Source of the DNA: a virus | Taxonomy: Duplodnaviria > Heunggongvirae > Uroviricota > Caudoviricetes | Length of the DNA: 46,799 nucleotides | Strand: one strand, 5' to 3' | IMG/VR virus record: IMGVR_UViG_2597490154_000003 | The notes under the pieces: generated by a model | What the model saw: the letters and a program-made list of their open reading frames with translations, nothing else | What the model was told of the DNA's origin: nothing | The model's database searches: none | Part shown: piece by piece, positions 1-26,702 of the stretch | Numbering within the stretch: the stretch's first letter is position 1 | How the letters are laid out: each line of letters starts with the position of its first letter | Program-made: the position numbers and the translations under genes

Positions 1-91
1 CACAACATCCGAGGACAGCAACACCCGATACTTTTTCCTGGCTTCCAGCAACGGGGTTTCTTCCTCCGTTGCATATACAGCTCACCTTTTT

Positions 92-385
92 TCACCCACG
101 ATTAACCAACAGCCAGACCAGCAGACACGCCACCACCGGCACAGCAAAATCCATCAGGCTTGCCACATCCCAAGCTCGCGGATCAAAACCGCCCCACCAC
201 GGCATATTCATTCGCTTGCCATGCCCGAACATTTCAATCCAGCGATATTCTGCCTGGGTATGTTCACGCGCAATGAAGAACGTACAACCGGCTATCGCTC
301 CGTAAGCCCAGTTTCCGGTAAAAAGACCAACCAGTATCTGCGCAGCCACAGCACAAAGCGCATGAAGTAAGGGGCTTATATCCAT
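92..385 (-). CDS. hypothetical small membrane protein
   Basis: 97-aa ORF; ATG at 385 preceded by AGGAGGA-like RBS on minus strand; two hydrophobic stretches (AVAAQILVGLF, VPVVACLLVWLLV); no family recognised. Confidence 0.45.
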   Translation of the reverse strand: MDISPLLHALCAVAAQILVGLFTGNWAYGAIAGCTFFIAREHTQAEYRWIEMFGHGKRMNMPWWGGFDPRAWDVASLMDFAVPVVACLLVWLLVNRG

Positions 386-397
386 TATTTCCTCCTT

Positions 398-676
398 TCA
401 GCTCCATTCCCGAAGCGGTGTTTCCAGCTCCACGACATAATCAGAGAATACAGAAACATCAAACAAGTCATCAAGAATGCGAATGTTGACAAAATAACCG
501 TCATTCCGGACACAGACAGGTTCTCCCTCTTCTGTTACCCCTGTTTCTGTGTAGGTGAAACCAATTTCATCGACTAACAGTTTATTCTGGAGGTCTTCAT
601 CCTCCTCCCAGTCAAGAGATGACAGGAAGGCCTTAAACTGCAGTTTGTCATGAAACTTCAAAGTTAAATCTTTCAT
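398..676 (-). CDS. hypothetical acidic protein downstream of tail fibre
   Basis: 92-aa ORF; ATG at 676 overlaps the stop of the upstream tail fibre gene (ATGA overlap), suggesting translational coupling; acidic composition; no family recognised. Confidence 0.45.
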   Translation of the reverse strand: MKDLTLKFHDKLQFKAFLSSLDWEEDEDLQNKLLVDEIGFTYTETGVTEEGEPVCVRNDGYFVNIRILDDLFDVSVFSDYVVELETPLREWS

Positions 677-2739
677 ACGACCTCTTTTAATTGCCTGTCA
701 TTTAATTCTTTATGCCATATGCGGAAATTGCGAATATGGCCAAACAGATGTCGTTCTCCAGTATTCGTCTGCCCTCCAAATCGGATATTTTTATCAGCGG
801 TCACACCATTATATTCACAATAAACTTCATTAACCGCTTTACCATTTGTCACCACATGAAAGTGACCATCAGCTTTTGCAATACATCCAAATGTGGTTTT
901 CTCTGCAAATACATCTGTCGCTGCGCTATTAACATACAAGCCTGAAGGGTTTGACAGACTCATATATAACTTACCACTACCTCTGTTGATTGCTGCAATT
1001 GCTGATTGCCCGGTATTGGCTGCTGCTATATCCCACACGCGGGGTGCGGCGTTTGGTGCAATATCCCAGTTTTTATGAATCTCAAGTAAAAAAGTAAATG
1101 GTAACTTATAAAGATTATTTCTGGTGGGGATACTAACCAAATCACTGGCTCTTGTCGTTGCGCTGCCTCCTGAAATAATAAATGATGATACACACGGCCC
1201 ATTCTCTACTTGTGGGGTGGCAAGATAAATATAGTCACCAGATACTGTTGCCCCACCCCGCTCAGGAGAATACTGTATCTGAGAGCCTATTTTTAACTCA
1301 CCATCAATTGCCTGAATCGTTGCCTCTGCAAAAATCCAGCCTGTGGTCTTATCCTTCCTGACTCGTGCCGTAATTCTGCCGGCAGCCCCACCTGTCATAT
1401 TAATTTCAAGCGTTTGCGTATCAATGTACGCATCGCCAAGAAAAGTTGTTGCACTACCATCATACTTATCAAACCGTATACGTAACCTTACCTGTCGTTC
1501 TGTTTTAAAACGGCATGAGGTTGTCACGTACTTGTTATCGCCTGAGACATCAACTGACTTTGTTGCAGCAATTGATGCCATATTAATAGCCGAAGTTTGC
1601 CCAACCAGAGAATCGTTGCAGACAAACTTTCCATAAGTAAAACCAAAACTATCTGTCCCGGTTTCGGGCACATCCATGTTTGATGACTTCCCCCAGCTGG
1701 CTGGACTTTCCGAATTGAGCATGTAGTTCGTTCTTTGTCCCTCAATAAGCAGGCCATCACACTCAAATCGCGGCTCATTAATTTCCGCCGTTTTCAGTTC
1801 GCCAGATTTGTTGATATATGTTGCCGTTGATGCGCGACTGAAATTAACCTGTTTATCACTGGCGACCTGAACCACATCGTCACCAATAGCTATTTTTTTA
1901 TAGCCCGGAGAAAAACCCGCAATCATATCCAGTGAATCGTTAAACGGTATCCACACATCAGGCAGCGGCGGCACTATATTCGCATAGGGCTCTGCAGTCA
2001 CTTCCGCTGCGACTTCTGCGCGGTCTGCCGCCTTTTCAGCCCGTGTCGCTGCCGACAGAGCCTCATCCTTTTTCTGCCCGGCCTTTGTTGCGTCTGCTGC
2101 GGCCTCCCGCGCTTTTGTGGTGGCGACTCCGGCATTTTCAGCGGCTGACTCTGCATTACGGCGGGAAGCCTCTTCACTGTCTGCGGAGGCTTCTTCTGAC
2201 GCACGGGCATTTGTCTCTGAACGTTCTGCCGCTGTTGCTGCGTTTTGTGCGGCTGTTTTTGAAGAAGCTGCCGCTTTCGCGCTGTTACCTGCATTCGTCT
2301 CTGATGTTTTCGCCGCATTCCTGGACGATGCCGCTGCTGTTTCTGATTTCTTTGCTGCCGCTGCGCTCTGAGAGGCGGCTTCAGCGTTGCGTGCCACCTC
2401 TTCCACCATCTTTTCAAAACGATACAGTGCCTCCGGACGAACATCATCTTCTGTTGCAGCGCCCAGAAAATCATTCAATGTCCCCGGCTTAGAATCCTCA
2501 TACACGGTGATGGCCCCGGCATGTGAAGGCGGAAAACCTTCAACCAGCAGGATAACGCTGTACTGGCCATACTCGACATCCATGCTGTAACGTCCGGCTT
2601 CATCCGGATTTTCTGAGGCCACCGTGTTCACCACAACCGTGGTGCTGTTACGTTTTGCTTTGAGCTGAATGGTGCAGTTCTGTATCGGTTTTCCTGCACC
2701 GTCTTTCAGCACGCCTGAAATCTGTACTGCCATATTCAC
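673..2739 (-). CDS. stf: side tail fibre protein (Stf-like)
   Basis: 688-aa ORF; N-terminus (AVQISGVLKDGAGKPIQNCTIQLKAKRNSTTVVVNT...) matches remembered lambda Stf; Ala/Ser/Thr-rich low-complexity stalk; divergent C-terminal region. Confidence 0.8.
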   Translation of the reverse strand: MNMAVQISGVLKDGAGKPIQNCTIQLKAKRNSTTVVVNTVASENPDEAGRYSMDVEYGQYSVILLVEGFPPSHAGAITVYEDSKPGTLNDFLGAATEDDVRPEALYRFEKMVEEVARNAEAASQSAAAAKKSETAAASSRNAAKTSETNAGNSAKAAASSKTAAQNAATAAERSETNARASEEASADSEEASRRNAESAAENAGVATTKAREAAADATKAGQKKDEALSAATRAEKAADRAEVAAEVTAEPYANIVPPLPDVWIPFNDSLDMIAGFSPGYKKIAIGDDVVQVASDKQVNFSRASTATYINKSGELKTAEINEPRFECDGLLIEGQRTNYMLNSESPASWGKSSNMDVPETGTDSFGFTYGKFVCNDSLVGQTSAINMASIAATKSVDVSGDNKYVTTSCRFKTERQVRLRIRFDKYDGSATTFLGDAYIDTQTLEINMTGGAAGRITARVRKDKTTGWIFAEATIQAIDGELKIGSQIQYSPERGGATVSGDYIYLATPQVENGPCVSSFIISGGSATTRASDLVSIPTRNNLYKLPFTFLLEIHKNWDIAPNAAPRVWDIAAANTGQSAIAAINRGSGKLYMSLSNPSGLYVNSAATDVFAEKTTFGCIAKADGHFHVVTNGKAVNEVYCEYNGVTADKNIRFGGQTNTGERHLFGHIRNFRIWHKELNDRQLKEVV

Positions 2740-2791
2740 TCCACAAATAAAAAAGGCGCCATTTCTGGCGCCCGTATCTGGGTTATAAAAT

Positions 2792-5700
2792 TCAACTGAT
2801 ACCGGCTGTAGATTTCTTCATCACAACAACAAGAAGGTCGCTGATACTGGTCGTTGGCGTCCAGTTATTAGCACCATATGAAGAAACATTGAAAGTCAGG
2901 GTGACATGGCCGTGTCCGGCAGGCATATCAATGACTGATGAAAATACCCTGCTGACATCCGTCGCGGGTTGCTGAAAGATTTCCTGTCCGTTCTTCAGTA
3001 CCTGCAGCTTACAGGTTGAATACCAGTATGACTGTTGGTTGTTGCTGTTGAAGTTTTCATGCTTACCCCCACGAAACAGAACGGGGGGGACTACTATCTG
3101 ACGGTCAAAAGCCTGGTCATCGTACACAGTGACCGTTATTGTACCGCTGGCATAACTGCCATTTCTCGGAAAGGCTTTTCCCACCGTTTTGACAATATCA
3201 CCTTCAATCTGGTTAGCTGACAGTTTTCCCAGAATCCGACAGTTCTGATTAATCGTGACGTTGTTGAGCGTCCCGGAGTTCGCGTTCACGTTACCGCTGA
3301 TATCCGCATTTTTCGCAGAAAGTCGACCATCAGGTGTCAGTGAAAACGTTGGGGGATTGCCACCGCTGGTAATGGTGGGAGCCGTCAGATATTTCAGGAA
3401 CACTTCGTTCATGAATATCTGATCGCCCTGCCCAACAAACATCGGCTTTGTGTTGCCATTCGCAGGATTAATCATCGCAATCCTGTCCGCCGCCAGCAGC
3501 ACCTGACTCTGCATACCGTCAGGAGTATTCTCAACACCGGCACCAATACCCGCGATATAAAGGCGTCCGTCCTGCATCTGCTGCAGCTTCACAGCCCACA
3601 TGCTGTTCAGGTTATTATTTGTATCAACCTGAACCTTCTGTATCTGCTGGATCGCTGCACTCTGGTCTTCCAGTTTCTTATTGACGGTCTGCGTGATTTC
3701 ATTGCTGACACCCGTAATGGACGTCCTGATTTCAGCCAGGTCAGGCGCAAGCTGACCGTTATCAATCTGCGTCCACAACTCCTGAGCCAGATGGGTTTTC
3801 CCTATCTCTCCTTTGAAAAAATTCAGATAGCCGGATGCATCATCACTCGGCTGGCCAACAGCCTCCACAAATGCCGATTTGCCAACGGTGTTCACACTGC
3901 GGATGTAAAAATAATAATCATGGCCCGGTTTGATATTGATACTGGCGGCTATCCAGTACAGCGCCGTGCCAAGATAGCGTGCTGTGGTTTCAACCTGCCT
4001 GATATCCGCAATCCGCTTTTCCGAGAACCAGAACTCAAACTGTACCGTCGGATCATAAACCGCAAGATGCGGCGTGGCGGTTATCTGAAAATACCCCGGT
4101 GTCAGCTCAATCTGCGACGGCGCTGCCGGTGCGGCAATCCGGAACGATACCGATGCCGGATCGCCCTGCTGCCCCCACGCATTTACCGCCCGGACTGTCA
4201 GCCTGTAGTTCCCCAGCGCCAGTTGCCTGAAGCGGTATGTGGTTTCCGTCGTCCGGGCCGTGCTGACCAGCCGCTCACTGCCGTCATCCGCTGCCACGGT
4301 CAGGCGAAGCATAAAGCTCACCCCCTTCACCACCTTCGGCGTGTCCCAGCGCGCCAGCACCTGATATTCCCCGCTGTCTGCGGTGACTTCGGCAGTCAGG
4401 TGCTGCACCGCTGGCGGCGTGACACCATTCACCGTGCCGCTCTGGTCGCCGTCAAAGTGCGCCCCGTTATCCACGATGGCCTCTTTTTCCGGTACATGCT
4501 GCACGGCAGTGATGGCATACGTGCCGTCATCGTTCTCACGGATACTCACACAGCGGAACAGGCGCTGGCGCAACGTTGGCAACTTCAGCCCCCACACGCT
4601 GTATTCTGCAACGCCGTCAGGAACACGGCTCACTTTTACCTTCACGCCGTCGGTGACGGACTGGACCTCCACGCTGACCGGATTCCCCTGTCCGTCAGCC
4701 AGGCTTATCAGCGTGGTGCCGGAGGATGGCAGCGTGATTTCACGGTCGAGCGTCAGTGTCCGCGTCTGGTTGTTCACCGCCAGCACGCGCCCGCCGATGC
4801 TGATCCCCGCATAGTCATCATCACAGATTTCAATGACATCGCCCGGTACATGGCGAAGCCCTTCTGCACCCACGCTGAAGTCCACGGTCTGCGTTTCCAG
4901 CAGCTCCGTTTTAATCAGCCACAGCCCGGCGCGGTGTGCCTGCCCCCGGCTGGTACAGCCAAAGGCATCCATCTTCGTGACGTTACGACCGTAACGGGCA
5001 ATGGCCTGCGTGTCCTCCACAAGCTCTGTCGCCGTCTCCCAGCCGTTATCCGGGTCAATCCAGTTCACCTCAACGGCATTATGGCGGTCTTTCAGGGCGC
5101 TGAAGCTGTAGCGGAACGGCGCGCCATCATCCGGCATCACCACATTACTGCGGTTATAGGTCCACACCTTATCCGACGGTCGGTCCTGCACGAATGTCAG
5201 CGTCTGCCCGTTCCATACCGGCATACAGCGCATCGCCGAGCAAAAATCACTGAGCACATCCCACGCCTTGCGCTGTGTGGTCAGGTACGCATTACAGGTG
5301 ATGCGCGGCTCCGTGCCGCCAAAGCCGTCCGGCACTGACTGGTCGCAATTCTGGCCGATGACATACAGCGCCCATTTATCCACATCTGCCGCACCAAGAC
5401 GTTTCCCCATGCCGTAGCGCGGATGGGTCAGCATATCCCACAGACACCAGGCCATGTTGTTGCTGTATGCTGGCTTAAACGTTCCGTCCCAGATACCGCT
5501 GTATTGCCGCGTCTGCGGGTTATAGTTCGACGGCACCTGCAGAATGCGCCCGCGAAGATGATAATTACGGCTCACCTGCTGGCTGCCGAACTGCTCCGAG
5601 TCCACCTGTACGCCGACCAGTGCCGTGTTCGGGTAGCACTGTTTCACATCGATGATTTCGGTGTATGACGACCAGAGCGTTTTGTTCTGCAACTGGTCTG

Positions 5701-6268
5701 TGGTGCTGTCCGGCGTCATCCTGCGCATCCGGATATTAAACGGGCGCGGCGGCAGGTTATCCACCACCACCGAGGCCAGATACTGCGACGTGGTTTTGCC
5801 CTTAATGGTGATGTCTTTTTCCGTCACCCAGCCACCGTTACGTTGAATCTGAACCAGCAGGCGGACTTCCGATGGATTCCTGTCCCCCTTTGAGGTGGTT
5901 TCCACCAGTGCCTGCACGCCGAAAGTAAAACGCAGACGGTCAATGTTTGCCGACGTGATGGTCCGGGTGATCGGCGTGTCATATTTCACTTCTGTACCGA
6001 GCACCGTCTCGGAGCCGGAGGATTCAAATCCCTCCGGCGGTGTCTGCTCCTGCTCACCGGCCCGGAACACCACCGTGACGCCGAATATATTGGTATTCCC
6101 CTCACTGTCCAGCACCGGCGTACTGTTCAGCAGCACGCTTTTTAATCCATCCACCGGACCTTCAACCGGCCCTTCGCTGATGGCGTCTATCACGCTCAGC
6201 ATCTGGGATGATTTCAGGTTGTCCTTCGCTTCGCGCGGGGTATGCCCCTTACTGCTGCCTTTACCCAT
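2792..6268 (-). CDS. J: tail tip host-specificity protein J
   Basis: 1158-aa ORF immediately upstream of stf, size and position as lambda J (about 1130 aa); follows I/K/L/M in lambda order. Confidence 0.9.
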
Positions 6269-6328
6269 TCCTCATGCTCCATAAACGATAAAACCGCCCG
6301 GAGGCGGTTTCACATAAAACATTTTGCA

Positions 6329-23860: not shown

Positions 23861-24322
23861 CTATCTGCACTGCTCATTAATATACTTCTGGGTTCCTTCC
23901 AGTTGTTTTTGCATAGTGATCAGCCTCTCTCTGAGGGTGAAATAATCCCGTTCAGCGGTGTCTGCCAGTCGGGGGGAGGCTGCATTATCCACGCCGGAGG
24001 CGGTGGTGGCTTCACGCACTGACTGACAGACTGCTTTGATGTGCAACCGACGACGACCAGCGGCAACATCATCACGCAGAGCATCATTTTCAGCTTTCGC
24101 ATCAGCTAACTCCTTCGTGTATTTTGCATCGAGCGCAGCAACATCACGCTGACGCATCTGTATGTCAGTAATTGCCGCGTTCGCCAGCGTCAGTTCTCTG
24201 GCATTTTTGTCGCGCTGGGCTTTGTAGGTAATGGCGTTATCACGGTAATGATTAACAGCCCATGACAGGCAGACGATGATGCAGATAACCAGAGCGGAGA
24301 TAATCGCGGTTACTCTGTTCAT
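23861..24322 (-). CDS. Rz: spanin inner-membrane subunit Rz
   Basis: track ORF 23861-24334; from [44 protein letters not shown] matches lambda Rz. Confidence 0.85.
23920..24102 (-). CDS. Rz1: spanin outer-membrane lipoprotein Rz1 (embedded in Rz, +1 frame)
   Basis: 60 aa with lipobox VVGC and proline-rich [15 protein letters not shown], as lambda Rz1; fully nested within Rz. Confidence 0.8.
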
Positions 24323-24816
24323 TGCTGACCCCACAAACAGATTTCACGCTCAATCTCACGACGAGTCATGAGACCTTTCCATTGCTTACCGCCAGCATAT
24401 GTCCAGCGACGTAGCTGATCACATGCGCCTTTGATATCGCCCTGGTTTATTTTGCGAAGAAGCGTCGATGTTCTGAAATTGCCAGCACCCACGTTGTAAA
24501 CGAATGAGTAAAGAGCGCCGCGCATTGTTTCCGGTATATCGACTTTGATGTACGGGTTAATTTGTCTGGCGACCGTGGCAAGGTCTTTATTCAGGAGGGC
24601 TTTGCATTCTGCTTTGGTATACGTTTTACCGAGCATGATGTCTTTTCCTGTATGCCCGTGACATACAGTCCATACACCAACAATATCTTTGTATGGTATG
24701 TAGCTGACACCTTCCAGACCATCGTTACCACTTGGGCCAGTGATTAACACTGATGCTATAGCAATTGCTCCGCCACCAATAGCAGCAGCAACGGCTTTTC
24801 GTAATGATGGAGGCAT
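24319..24816 (-). CDS. R: SAR endolysin (phage 21 R-type lysozyme)
   Basis: 165 aa; N-terminal Gly/Ala-rich weakly hydrophobic signal-anchor-release segment ([21 protein letters not shown]) followed by lysozyme-like domain; resembles remembered phage 21 R. Confidence 0.85.
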
Positions 24817-25193: not shown

Positions 25194-25619
25194 AAGCTGT
25201 GTGACGAAGTAACCACTCTTAACAGCATAACCAATTTTTTACGTACGTAAACTACTAAATGATATTTGTGAGAATGCCACCGAGTGTTCAAAACACCACC
25301 ACAAATGCATAAGAAAACTTCAACAAATAACCAGTTAATAATTTCCGATGTTATTTTTAGTTTGTTTAAATTAAGCTAAAGAATTATAGAGCACTTATAA
25401 ATAAGTGCCATTAATATAAATTAGCTAATAGATTTATTTTTGTTCAGACAAGAGCCATGAATAGGATTAGATAGAAAAGGTTCAGATAAAAATAGAGATC
25501 TACTTCACAAATTAAATGAGAAACTAAAACTTACATCTTGAAATAATCACATTGATTAGATGAATATTTATCGCGCAGTGACATCATTTTTTAATAAAAG
25601 TTCAAAAAAAGGGCGTACA

Positions 25620-26702
25620 ATGAAAAAATTAACAGTGGCAATTTCTGCTGTAGCTGCATCAGTACTGATGGCGATGTCTGCTCAGGCAGCTGAAATTTAT
25701 AATAAAGACAGTAACAAGCTGGATCTATACGGGAAAGTTAATGCCAAGCACTACTTCTCCTCTAATGATGCAGATGATGGTGATACTACTTATGCCCGTC
25801 TTGGCTTCAAAGGTGAAACCCAAATCAACGATCAACTGACTGGTTTCGGTCAGTGGGAATATGAATTCAAAGGCAACCGTGCTGAATCTCAAGGTTCTTC
25901 CAAAGACAAAACCCGTCTTGCATTTGCAGGCCTGAAATTTGGTGATTACGGCTCAATCGATTACGGCCGTAACTACGGTGTAGCATACGACATCGGTGCG
26001 TGGACTGACGTTCTGCCAGAATTCGGTGGTGATACCTGGACCCAAACAGATGTGTTCATGACTGGTCGCACTACTGGTGTTGCAACTTATCGTAACAACG
26101 ACTTCTTTGGTCTGGTCGATGGCCTGAACTTTGCTGCTCAGTATCAGGGTAAAAATGACCGCACTGACGTAACTGAAGCCAATGGTGATGGTTTCGGTTT
26201 CTCCACTACTTATGAGTATGAAGGATTCGGCGTGGGTGCAACCTATGCTAAATCAGATCGCACTGACGGTCAGGTCGCCTATGGTAAGAGCAAATTCAAT
26301 GCCTCCGGCAAAAATGCGGAAGTATGGGCTGCAGGCCTGAAATATGATGCGAACAATATCTATCTGGCTACCACATATTCTGAAACTCAGAATATGACCG
26401 TTTTTGGTAATAACCATATTGCAAACAAAGCACAAAACTTTGAAGCAGTAGCACAATATCAGTTTGACTTCGGTCTGCGTCCATCTGTTGCTTACCTTCA
26501 GTCAAAAGGTAAAGACCTTGGTGTTCATGGTGACCGAGACTTAGTCAAGTATGTCGATGTCGGTGCTACTTACTACTTTAATAAAAACATGTCCACTTTT
26601 GTTGATTACAAAATCAACTTAATTGACGATAGTAAGTTTACCAAAACAGCTGGTATTGATACCGACGACATCGTCGCTGTAGGTCTGGTTTATCAGTTCT
26701 AA
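25620..26702 (+). CDS. nmpC: outer membrane porin, NmpC/OmpC family (intact)
   Basis: ATG at 25620 (track ORF 25560); signal peptide [40 protein letters not shown]-terminal VGLVYQF; matches remembered NmpC-type porin; opposite strand to flanking late genes. Confidence 0.85.

What the first reader, a model, noticed from the sequence alone, without database searches (positions are those of the whole stretch)
92..676. Two coupled small genes of unknown function immediately downstream of the side tail fibre
Where lambda-like phages normally carry a tail fibre assembly gene (tfa), this phage has a 92-aa acidic protein translationally coupled to stf (ATGA overlap at 673-676) followed by a 97-aa two-helix membrane protein with a strong RBS. 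They could be a non-canonical fibre chaperone pair or a terminal moron such as a receptor-masking or exclusion function.
Basis: partly seen in the sequence, partly recalled or inferred. Interest (0 to 1): 0.45.

Follow-up and report, generated by a model that had tools for sequence, protein, structure and literature searches.

The report
Fibre partner gene plus membrane hitchhiker
Two small unannotated genes after the side tail fibre of a phage 21-like prophage are real: the first always accompanies this sugar-binding type of fibre and probably helps build it, and the second is an unrelated, widespread small membrane protein that tends to sit behind phage receptor-binding genes.

Summary
Window 1-2800 is 100% identical to coliphage 21. 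The ORFs are its genes CPT_21_23 (92 aa, pI 4.1, 398-676 minus) and CPT_21_24 (97 aa, 92-385 minus), annotated as hypothetical. stf and orf92 overlap by ATGA. orf97 follows 12 nt later behind AAGGAGG. Both are under purifying selection. Neither matches Pfam, NCBIfam, PADLOC or PDB. Their PHROG families (1361, 1443) have unknown function.

They are not one unit. orf92 is an obligate partner of the fibre's distal module, which is homologous to the RcGTA head-spike fibre Rcc01080 and ends in a LamG domain. Every orf92 homologue, down to 30% identity and in unrelated phages, abuts such a fibre gene. 77 of 79 such fibres carry it. It shares the module's low GC. It co-diverges with the module's conserved neck, not with the variable receptor-binding middle. 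The best reading is a new family of fibre assembly or accessory protein that replaces Tfa. This is inferred, not shown.

orf97 is a three-helix inner-membrane protein with a near-invariant motif. It occurs in alpha-, beta- and gamma-proteobacteria, behind several kinds of receptor-binding gene and also alone in chromosomes. Its function is unknown. Exclusion or envelope modification is a guess. Overall interest is moderate.

The parts
673..2739 (-). Side tail fibre gene stf (688 aa). It has an N-terminal anchor (PF08400), an Ala-rich coiled-coil shaft, and a distal lectin-type module.
   Evidence: ORF list. PF08400 E = 1e-68, Laminin_G_3 weak. PHROG 1419 tail protein. 100% identical to phage 21 CPT_21_22 'side tail fiber'.
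676..1977 (-). Distal module of Stf (residues 255-688), called StfC here. It has a conserved neck (255-349), a hypervariable middle (about 350-649) and a conserved LamG-type C-terminal tail (650-688).
   Evidence: A profile of StfC hits PDB 6TB9 'head spike fiber Rcc01080' at E = 1.7e-20. NCBIfam GTA_spike_fiber E = 1e-14. Comparison with the PhiR47_2 Stf shows the variable middle between conserved flanks. GC is 43.5%, against 55% for the N-terminal part.
681..686 (-). Shine-Dalgarno AAGAGG for orf92, inside the last codons of stf.
   Evidence: Read from the sequence. A ribosome-binding site is annotated here in the phage 21 record.
673..676 (-). ATGA overlap of the stf stop codon with the orf92 start codon.
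   Evidence: Relatives keep either ATGA or TAATG at this junction.
398..676 (-). orf92: an acidic 10.8 kDa alpha/beta protein (PHROG 1361) and an obligate partner of the StfC module. Proposed fibre assembly or accessory factor.
391..397 (-). Strong Shine-Dalgarno AAGGAGG for orf97, in the 12-nt spacer after the orf92 stop.
   Evidence: sequence. A ribosome-binding site is annotated here in the phage 21 record.
92..385 (-). orf97: a small inner-membrane protein (PHROG 1443) with three predicted helices and the near-invariant motifs FIAREHTQAEYRWI and MPWWGGFD. It belongs to an independent, widely distributed family.
2754..2773 (-). Terminator-like hairpin between J and stf. No terminator-like or promoter-like site lies between stf and the end of orf97, so the three genes look like one late transcription unit.
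   Evidence: A terminator is annotated at the same place in the phage 21 record.

Best explanation
The finding holds two separate things.

(1) orf92 is the dedicated partner of the lectin-type distal module of this side tail fibre. It is translated by coupling to stf. I infer that it acts on the conserved neck and tail of the module rather than on the variable receptor-binding surface. It would either help the distal domains fold and trimerise (the job Tfa does for lambda-type fibres) or stay bound as a small accessory subunit. It represents a new family, unrelated in sequence and predicted fold to Tfa, gp38, gp57A and the S74 intramolecular chaperone.

(2) orf97 is an independent small inner-membrane protein that has repeatedly settled at the 3' end of receptor-binding-protein operons. 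It is co-expressed late with the fibre. I infer that it acts on a conserved envelope or inner-membrane component, for example to exclude superinfecting phage or alter the envelope, and not on the fibre itself.

Shown: the gene structure, conservation, linkage patterns, composition and predicted folds. Inferred: every biochemical role.
For: orf92:
- All 80 IMG/VR loci found through orf92, plus four non-lambdoid prophage loci, have a StfC homologue (35-100% identity) ending at the orf92 start.
- In the reverse test, 77 of 79 loci found through StfC carry orf92. The two exceptions are truncated fibres.
- A 30%-identical orf92 homologue follows, with overlap, a 28%-identical fibre in another prophage clade, in 80 of 80 loci.
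- The same pairing holds in Comamonas, Pantoea and Chelativorans prophages.
- GC content is 42.7% for orf92 and 43.5% for StfC, against 53-56% for the neighbouring genes.
- orf92 divergence tracks Stf 255-349 (r = 0.68-0.78) and Stf 650-688 (r = 0.50). It does not track the middle 350-649 (r = 0.15-0.28), StfN (r = 0.34) or orf97 (r = 0.25).
- Phage 21 has no tfa gene, and the fibre has no S74 domain.
- The fold prediction is confident (pLDDT 90), and the family has 77 members in the exhaustive search.

orf97:
- 577 or more homologues exist, with 27 invariant positions across Escherichia, Aeromonas and Comamonas.
- It occurs after LamG fibres, short S74 fibres, a tailspike and a giant J-like protein. 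It also occurs in non-phage chromosomal settings.
- Two fibre+orf92 clades lack it.
- It is tightly coupled to the upstream gene and has no promoter-like site of its own.
Against: - No physical interaction, virion proteomics or genetics exists for either protein.
- The co-divergence pattern could also arise from cassette exchange of the variable middle by double crossover in conserved flanks, without any selection for matched pairs.
- orf92 does not co-vary with the receptor-binding region, unlike the C-terminal half of classical Tfa proteins.
- Most relatives carry a short second fibre gene directly after orf92. This fits an adaptor role as well as a chaperone role.
- For orf97, the trio fibre-orf92-orf97 recurs with translational coupling in alpha-, beta- and gamma-proteobacterial prophages. 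A functional tie to the fibre module is therefore not excluded.
- Nothing points to a specific target for orf97.
Confidence: 0.5

Rival explanations
1. orf92 is a structural adaptor in the virion. It would sit at the shaft-head junction of Stf and provide the docking site for a second, short fibre, producing a branched fibre. In the phage 21 lineage that second fibre gene has been lost.
For: - In about 56 of 74 lambdoid loci, a 234-aa or 346-aa short fibre gene lies directly after orf92.
- The same holds in L003-L006 and in about 51 of 80 loci of the P0210 clade.
- These short fibres lack the PF08400 anchor and share a conserved N-terminal peptide, MA(T/S)xTVIPxDI.
- orf92 co-diverges with the neck of StfC.
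Against: - orf92 is kept intact and under purifying selection in the many loci that have no second fibre, including this window.
- About a third of the P0210-clade loci show no recognisable second fibre.
- No evidence exists that orf92 is in virions.
Confidence: 0.2
2. The three genes stf-orf92-orf97 form one functional system. The membrane protein orf97 and the acidic protein orf92 would act together, for example in membrane-associated maturation of the fibre. Alternatively they would shut down synthesis of the surface polysaccharide that the fibre binds, so that progeny phage are not trapped on debris.
For: - The trio recurs in Escherichia, Comamonas and Pantoea prophages with ATGA and TGATG overlaps, and in Chelativorans in the order fibre-orf97-orf92.
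- 74 of 78 viral orf97 loci have StfC and orf92 upstream.
- All three genes lie in one late transcription unit.
- The fibre domain is homologous to a capsule-binding fibre (PMC7296036).
Against: - orf97 also follows a tailspike and other fibres with no orf92 present. It also stands alone next to ligA, pirin and other housekeeping genes.
- Two fibre+orf92 clades lack orf97 entirely, as do two lambdoid loci with 2.7 kb of downstream sequence.
- orf97 has a different GC content from StfC and orf92 and does not co-diverge with either.
- The IMG/VR sample is dominated by E. coli prophages.
Confidence: 0.15
3. orf97 is a lysis-related protein (a holin, antiholin or lysis regulator), and orf92 is an unrelated acidic late protein such as a DNA mimic or anti-defence factor.
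For: - orf97 is about 97 aa with three helices, like class I holins.
- In locus L307 it directly precedes an endolysin-like gene and a 'hol-like' gene. In Comamonas loci it heads a run of small overlapping genes.
- orf92 has a pI of 4.1.
Against: - This phage has its own complete lysis cassette 23 kb away, with Rz and lysozyme at 23861-24816. Phage 21 has the well-studied S21, R21 and Rz genes.
- orf97 lacks a charged C-terminal tail.
- orf97 is far more conserved across bacterial classes than holins are, and it occurs as a lone chromosomal gene.
- The strict fibre linkage of orf92 is unexplained by a DNA-mimic role.
- PADLOC finds nothing for either protein.
Confidence: 0.05

Closest known systems
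Lambda Tfa / T4 gp38 / P2 gpG tail fibre assembly proteins (Pfam PF02413 Caudo_TAP)
   Same: The gene sits immediately 3' of the fibre gene in the late operon. It is a small cytoplasmic protein that travels with the distal, receptor-binding part of the fibre. This phage has no other candidate chaperone.
   Different: - No HMM match.
- 92 aa, against about 190 aa.
- It does not co-vary with the receptor-binding region. It co-varies with the conserved neck.
- The fibre it accompanies is a lectin/LamG type, not a beta-helical tip.
RcGTA head spike (GhsA/Rcc01079 base plus GhsB/Rcc01080 fibre; PDB 6TB9)
   Same: The first distal domain of Stf is homologous to Rcc01080 (E = 1.7e-20). Rcc01080 binds capsule polysaccharide and needs a small partner protein encoded next to it (PMC7296036 and PMC5026251).
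   Different: - The partner there, Rcc01079, is encoded upstream. It is a jellyroll pentamer that anchors the fibre to the capsid.
- Rcc01080 lacks the C-terminal LamG part.
- Here the fibre is anchored by a PF08400 domain and a coiled coil.
T4 gp57A (small acidic general fibre chaperone)
   Same: A small, very acidic protein proposed to assist fibre folding.
   Different: From my own knowledge, gp57A is an all-helical coiled coil that is not linked to one fibre gene. orf92 is predicted to be mostly beta-strand and is strictly linked to one fibre type.
Small membrane or envelope proteins encoded beside tail genes that exclude other phages (HK97 gp15, phi80/N15 Cor, T5 Llp, phage D3 Iap)
   Same: orf97 is a small membrane protein placed directly behind receptor-binding genes. 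That is the position where such exclusion or conversion genes are often found (my own knowledge of these systems).
   Different: - No sequence relationship was detected (PADLOC, Pfam and NCBIfam all negative).
- orf97 has no promoter of its own.
- It does not co-vary with the receptor-binding domain.
- It is highly conserved across bacterial classes and also occurs as a chromosomal gene.

Membership tests
Tail fibre assembly protein Tfa (PF02413 Caudo_TAP; also PF16778 Phage_tail_APC) | Sequence match to the family profile | tested here: not met
   Pfam at E <= 1 gives only a sub-threshold LUD_dom hit for orf92. NCBIfam gives none. As a positive control, a Comamonas neighbour gene scored PF16778 at E = 3e-15 in the same tool.
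Tail fibre assembly protein Tfa (PF02413 Caudo_TAP; also PF16778 Phage_tail_APC) | Gene immediately downstream of, and co-inherited with, the distal part of the fibre gene | tested here: met
   Overlapping junction in the window. Pairing in 80/80, 77/79 and 80/80 loci.
Tail fibre assembly protein Tfa (PF02413 Caudo_TAP; also PF16778 Phage_tail_APC) | Required for folding, trimerisation or attachment of the fibre | not testable with these tools
   Needs genetics or biochemistry.
PHROG 1361 (unknown function) | Full-length profile match | tested here: met
   orf92 residues 1-91 match profile positions 1-91 of 92, E = 8e-42.
PHROG 1443 (unknown function) | Full-length profile match | tested here: met
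   orf97 residues 1-96 match profile positions 1-96 of 97, E = 2e-58.
Holin | Small protein with transmembrane helices | tested here: met
   Three predicted helices and two hydrophobic stretches in orf97.
Holin | Encoded in the lysis cassette next to the endolysin | tested here: not met
   The window's lysozyme and Rz genes are at 23861-24816, about 23 kb away. Phage 21 has its own pinholin S21. Only one distant locus (L307) places an orf97 homologue before an endolysin-like gene.
Holin | Charged hydrophilic C-terminal tail | tested here: not met
   orf97 ends ...LLVNRG, directly after the last helix.
Moron (independently transcribed insert in a late operon, in the sense of Hendrix and colleagues) | Own promoter and terminator | tested here: not met
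   No promoter-like or terminator-like site lies between stf and the window start. orf97 starts 12 nt after orf92. The scan uses simple consensus patterns only, so this is weak negative evidence.
Moron (independently transcribed insert in a late operon, in the sense of Hendrix and colleagues) | Composition and distribution different from the neighbouring genes | tested here: met
   orf97 GC is 53.1%, against 42.7-43.5% for orf92 and StfC. Its taxonomic and genomic distribution is independent.
Known anti-phage defence or exclusion proteins (PADLOC-DB) | Profile match | tested here: not met
   No hit for either protein at E <= 1.
GTA/phage head-spike-fibre domain proteins (NCBIfam NF048003; PDB 6TB9 Rcc01080), for the fibre itself | Profile match to the lectin-type fibre domain | tested here: met
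   NF048003 E = 1.2e-14 over Stf 331-531, above the cut-off. StfC profile against Rcc01080, E = 1.7e-20.

The most novel reading that the evidence does not exclude
Fibre, orf92 and orf97 would form a previously unrecognised three-part adsorption module that has spread across alpha-, beta- and gamma-proteobacterial prophages. orf92 would be a new class of fibre-neck chaperone or adaptor. The ultra-conserved inner-membrane protein orf97 would act on a universal envelope pathway (for example undecaprenyl-linked glycan synthesis or export). Its effect would be to keep the polysaccharide-binding fibre, or the progeny phage, from being trapped. Its chromosomal homologues would then reveal an unknown housekeeping function.
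Probability: 0.1. Interest if true: 0.7.

Novelty: new variant of a known kind. Interest (0 to 1): 0.42.

Why it matters
This fibre type, together with its two followers, is present in about a fifth to a third of complete E. coli genomes. It is also in classical phage 21, yet both small genes are still annotated as 'hypothetical'.

If orf92 is needed to make the fibre, three things follow:
- It defines a new family of fibre accessory proteins for lectin-type (Rcc01080/LamG) fibres.
- It explains how these phages manage without Tfa.
- It must be co-transferred when such fibres are grafted onto lambda-based delivery particles or used to predict host range.

orf97 marks a very conserved small membrane protein family with no annotation at all. 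It is found in phages and in the chromosomes of Aeromonas, sphingomonads and Leclercia. Its near-invariant polar motifs suggest a specific, testable molecular target.

Tried and rejected
- **Profile and sequence searches.** Pfam, NCBIfam, PADLOC and PDB-sequence searches were run on both proteins and on family profiles. Only sub-threshold chance hits appeared (LUD_dom, PhoR, telomerase p19). I rejected them.
- **Fusion proteins.** I looked for 'Rosetta stone' fusions of orf92 to larger proteins. The long hits in the exhaustive search are TPR and PKD repeat proteins, so they are spurious. The C-terminal extension of the 188-aa Comamonas orf92-like protein has no known domain.
- **Natural absence of the two genes.** Phages 1W, 3W and 4A7 looked like fibres without the small genes. 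In fact they carry an IS66-type insertion in the 3' end of stf, and both genes are still downstream.
- **Literature.** The phage 21 genome announcement, the two Phi21 coevolution papers and a lambda-STF engineering preprint say nothing about either gene.
- **Own promoter for orf97.** None was found.
- **Frameshift fusion of stf and orf92.** I judged this unnecessary, because orf92 has its own Shine-Dalgarno and ATG.

Full report
**What is there.** The genes of interest lie on the minus strand. In order they are J (2792-6268), stf (673-2739, 688 aa), a 92-aa ORF (398-676) and a 97-aa ORF (92-385).
- The stf stop and the orf92 start overlap as ATGA (676-673), preceded by AAGAGG.
- The orf92 stop is followed by AAGGAGG-AAATA-ATG of orf97.
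- Window 1-2800 is 100% identical to Escherichia phage 21 (OL657228). There the ORFs are CPT_21_23 ('hypothetical protein') and CPT_21_24 ('putative membrane protein'). The window starts right after the convergent sitABCD operon.
- The rest of the window is a phage 21/ev017/PhiR57_1-like prophage.
- The curated phage 21 record has no tfa and no lom gene. It places a terminator between J and stf, which my scan also finds. No promoter-like or terminator-like site lies between stf and the end of orf97.

**Are they genes.** Yes.
- Both match full-length PHROG families of unknown function: 1361 at E = 8e-42 and 1443 at E = 2e-58.
- Across dozens of distinct alleles, median dN/dS is 0.32 for orf92 and 0.18 for orf97.
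- The region occurs in 1903 of 5426 complete E. coli genomes, and 1127 of these hold both genes nearly complete. RefSeq calls them 'hypothetical protein'.
- AlphaFold2 gives confident models. orf92 has pLDDT 90, with strands 2-8, 33-39, 42-47, 53-57 and 61-67 and helices 11-20 and 27-32. orf97 has pLDDT 94.8, with helices 4-23, 26-53 and 74-96.
- orf92 is acidic, with pI 4.1.

**No known family.**
- Pfam, NCBIfam, PADLOC and PDB sequences give nothing above threshold for either protein or for profiles of their families.
- BFVD returns only uncharacterised phage proteins.

**The fibre.**
- Stf has the PF08400 anchor and an Ala-rich coiled coil.
- Its distal module (residues 255-688, called StfC here) includes residues ~299-542, which are homologous to the RcGTA head-spike fibre Rcc01080 (PDB 6TB9, E = 1.7e-20; NCBIfam NF048003). 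That fibre binds capsule polysaccharide (PMC7296036).
- The module ends in a LamG-type domain.
- It has no S74 intramolecular chaperone domain.
- Comparison with the PhiR47_2 fibre shows a conserved neck (255-349), a hypervariable middle (about 350-649, roughly 30% identity) and a conserved tail (650-688).

**orf92 travels with StfC.**
- The word-indexed homologue search found only 48 relatives, all in Escherichia or Shigella.
- A 57%-identical homologue lies in a completely different siphophage-like prophage, between the head and tail genes. There it overlaps (TAATG) the end of a 704-aa protein whose last 437 residues are 54% identical to StfC. No orf97 follows.
- All 80 IMG/VR loci retrieved through orf92 have a StfC homologue (35-100% identity) ending at its start.
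- In the reverse direction, 77 of 79 loci retrieved through StfC have an orf92-family gene. The two exceptions are fibres truncated near residue 385 at a contig end. This is the situation seen in phage 1W, where an IS66-type element splits stf.
- The exhaustive profile search found 77 relatives, including distant 85-110-aa proteins with the motif M+DLYL+F...GYHVNLRV.DD.D...P.TP.RVWA.
- One of these distant relatives (30% identity) follows, again with overlap, a 565-aa fibre that is 28% identical to Stf. This holds in 80 of 80 viral loci of that clade.
- Comamonas, Pantoea and Chelativorans prophages show the same pairing.
- StfC and orf92 share a low GC content (43.5% and 42.7%). StfN, J and orf97 have 53-56%.

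**Which part of the fibre orf92 tracks.** orf92 does not follow the receptor-binding middle. Alleles 91-96% identical to the window's orf92 sit behind StfC variants only 43-44% identical to the window's. I compared pairwise distances across 107 unique lambdoid stf/orf92/orf97 combinations. Spearman correlations of orf92 distance with each other segment were:

| Segment | r with orf92 |
|---|---|
| Stf 255-299 | 0.78 |
| Stf 300-349 | 0.68 (Mantel p = 0.002) |
| Stf 650-688 | 0.50 |
| Stf 350-649 | 0.15-0.28 |
| N-terminal anchor | 0.34 |
| orf97 | 0.25 |

The segment about 1 kb away tracks orf92 better than the DNA in between. That fits a partner of the conserved neck and tail. Cassette exchange of the middle by double crossover could give the same picture without selection.

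**orf97 is something else.**
- It has 577 or more homologues.
- 27 positions are invariant, including H8, Q16, the block R40-E41-x-T43-Q44-A45-E46-Y47-R48-W49-I50, and M61-P62...G65-G66-F67-D68. They hold across Escherichia, Leclercia, Salmonella, Aeromonas and Comamonas.
- One representative genome per species gave 52 loci. These are prophages of Escherichia, Comamonas, Pantoea, Acidovorax and Chelativorans. There are also clearly non-phage settings: a conserved polB-pirin neighbourhood in Aeromonas, next to ligA in sphingomonads, and beside housekeeping genes in Leclercia and Silvania.
- In phages it sits directly 3' of receptor-binding genes of several kinds: StfC+orf92, short S74-type fibres, a 948-aa tailspike (3-nt gap), a Tail_spike_N protein, a 195-aa fibre and a giant J-like protein.
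- Of 78 viral loci retrieved through orf97, 74 have StfC and orf92 upstream. Only 18 are directly adjacent as in this window. In the others a 234-aa or 346-aa short fibre gene is inserted between orf92 and orf97.
- The trio recurs with ATGA and TGATG overlaps in Comamonas, and in the order fibre-orf97-orf92 in Chelativorans. Some functional tie to the module therefore cannot be excluded.
- Against such a tie, two fibre+orf92 clades lack orf97 altogether.
- orf97 stays 100% identical while StfC changes to 43% identity.
- The phage's own lysis genes are 23 kb away.

**Interpretation.** I commit to this reading, at about 0.5 overall. orf92 is the fibre-specific accessory protein of lectin-type distal fibre modules. 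That it works with the fibre is likely (about 0.8). That it is a Tfa-like assembly chaperone rather than a retained adaptor subunit is uncertain (roughly 0.5 against 0.2-0.3). orf97 is an independent small inner-membrane protein expressed with the late tail genes. Its target is unknown. Exclusion or envelope modification is my best guess, with low confidence. Receptor-specific masking is unlikely.

**Literature.** The phage 21 genome announcement (PMC9119081), the Phi21 coevolution papers (PMC11336670 and bioRxiv 2023.04.13.536812) and a lambda STF-engineering preprint contain no information on either gene.

**Verdict.** The genes are already catalogued as hypothetical ORFs. The strict fibre-orf92 rule, the neck co-divergence and the breadth and conservation of the orf97 family appear not to have been described in the literature I could search. 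Interest is moderate, and the ideas can be tested directly in a classical phage.

Noticed in passing
window 676-1977 (Stf residues 255-688): The distal module of this lambdoid side tail fibre is homologous to the RcGTA head-spike fibre Rcc01080 (PDB 6TB9, E = 1.7e-20). It has a hypervariable middle (about residues 350-649) between conserved flanks. This suggests cassette-like exchange of a polysaccharide-binding domain.
   Followed up: partly
L003-L006 (E. coli prophages), positions 3887-6279: A 671-704-aa protein with a StfC-type distal module, plus an orf92 homologue, lies between the capsid genes and the tail tube genes of a non-lambdoid siphophage-like prophage. A Peptidase_S74 fibre gene follows. 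The fibre may be a head or neck fibre there, as in RcGTA.
   Followed up: partly
L095 4918-5958; L097 5286-5990; many of L187-L224 and L309-L379: Most lambdoid relatives carry an extra short fibre gene (234 aa, or 346 aa with an S74-like C-terminus) between orf92 and orf97. These proteins lack the PF08400 anchor and share the N-terminal peptide MA(T/S)xTVIPxDI, which may be a docking motif. The window lacks this gene.
   Followed up: partly
L009 (phage 1W, OM475428) 1499-3915; also phages 3W, 4A7 and Lambda_4C10: A three-ORF mobile element (IS66-like layout) is inserted in the 3' end of stf and removes its last ~44 codons. orf92 and orf97 remain downstream.
   Followed up: partly
window 1-91 and just upstream of position 1: The window begins immediately after the stop of sitD. 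In phage 21 and its relatives, the sitABCD manganese/iron transporter operon converges on orf97 across a 91-bp spacer with no clear terminator in my scan.
   Followed up: partly
window 25560-26702 (+): A 380-aa Gram-negative porin gene (Porin_1, E = 2e-151; annotated OmpD/NmpC/OmpC-like in related phages) lies inside the prophage near the lysis genes. It is a likely lysogenic-conversion gene.
   Followed up: partly
window 2754-2773 (-): A strong terminator-like hairpin (8-bp, GC-rich stem followed by a T run) lies between J and stf, in the middle of the late operon. It is also annotated in phage 21, where a second terminator is annotated upstream of J.
   Followed up: no
various loci (for example L184, L196, L209): Some orf97 copies are truncated to 43-73 codons, and one orf92 copy to 10 codons. 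The genes are occasionally lost, so they are not indispensable for prophage maintenance.
   Followed up: no
L114 2500-6300, L306 2478-5300 (Comamonas-type prophages): Here the fibre is split into a 250-aa N-terminal fibre protein and a separate 402-aa StfC-like protein. The orf92-like protein carries a ~95-aa C-terminal extension with no known domain. A classical Phage_tail_APC chaperone gene sits just upstream, after J.
   Followed up: partly
window 3791-5338 (+): A 515-aa ORF runs antisense inside J. I saw no evidence that it is a gene. It is most likely a by-product of the codon composition of J.
   Followed up: no
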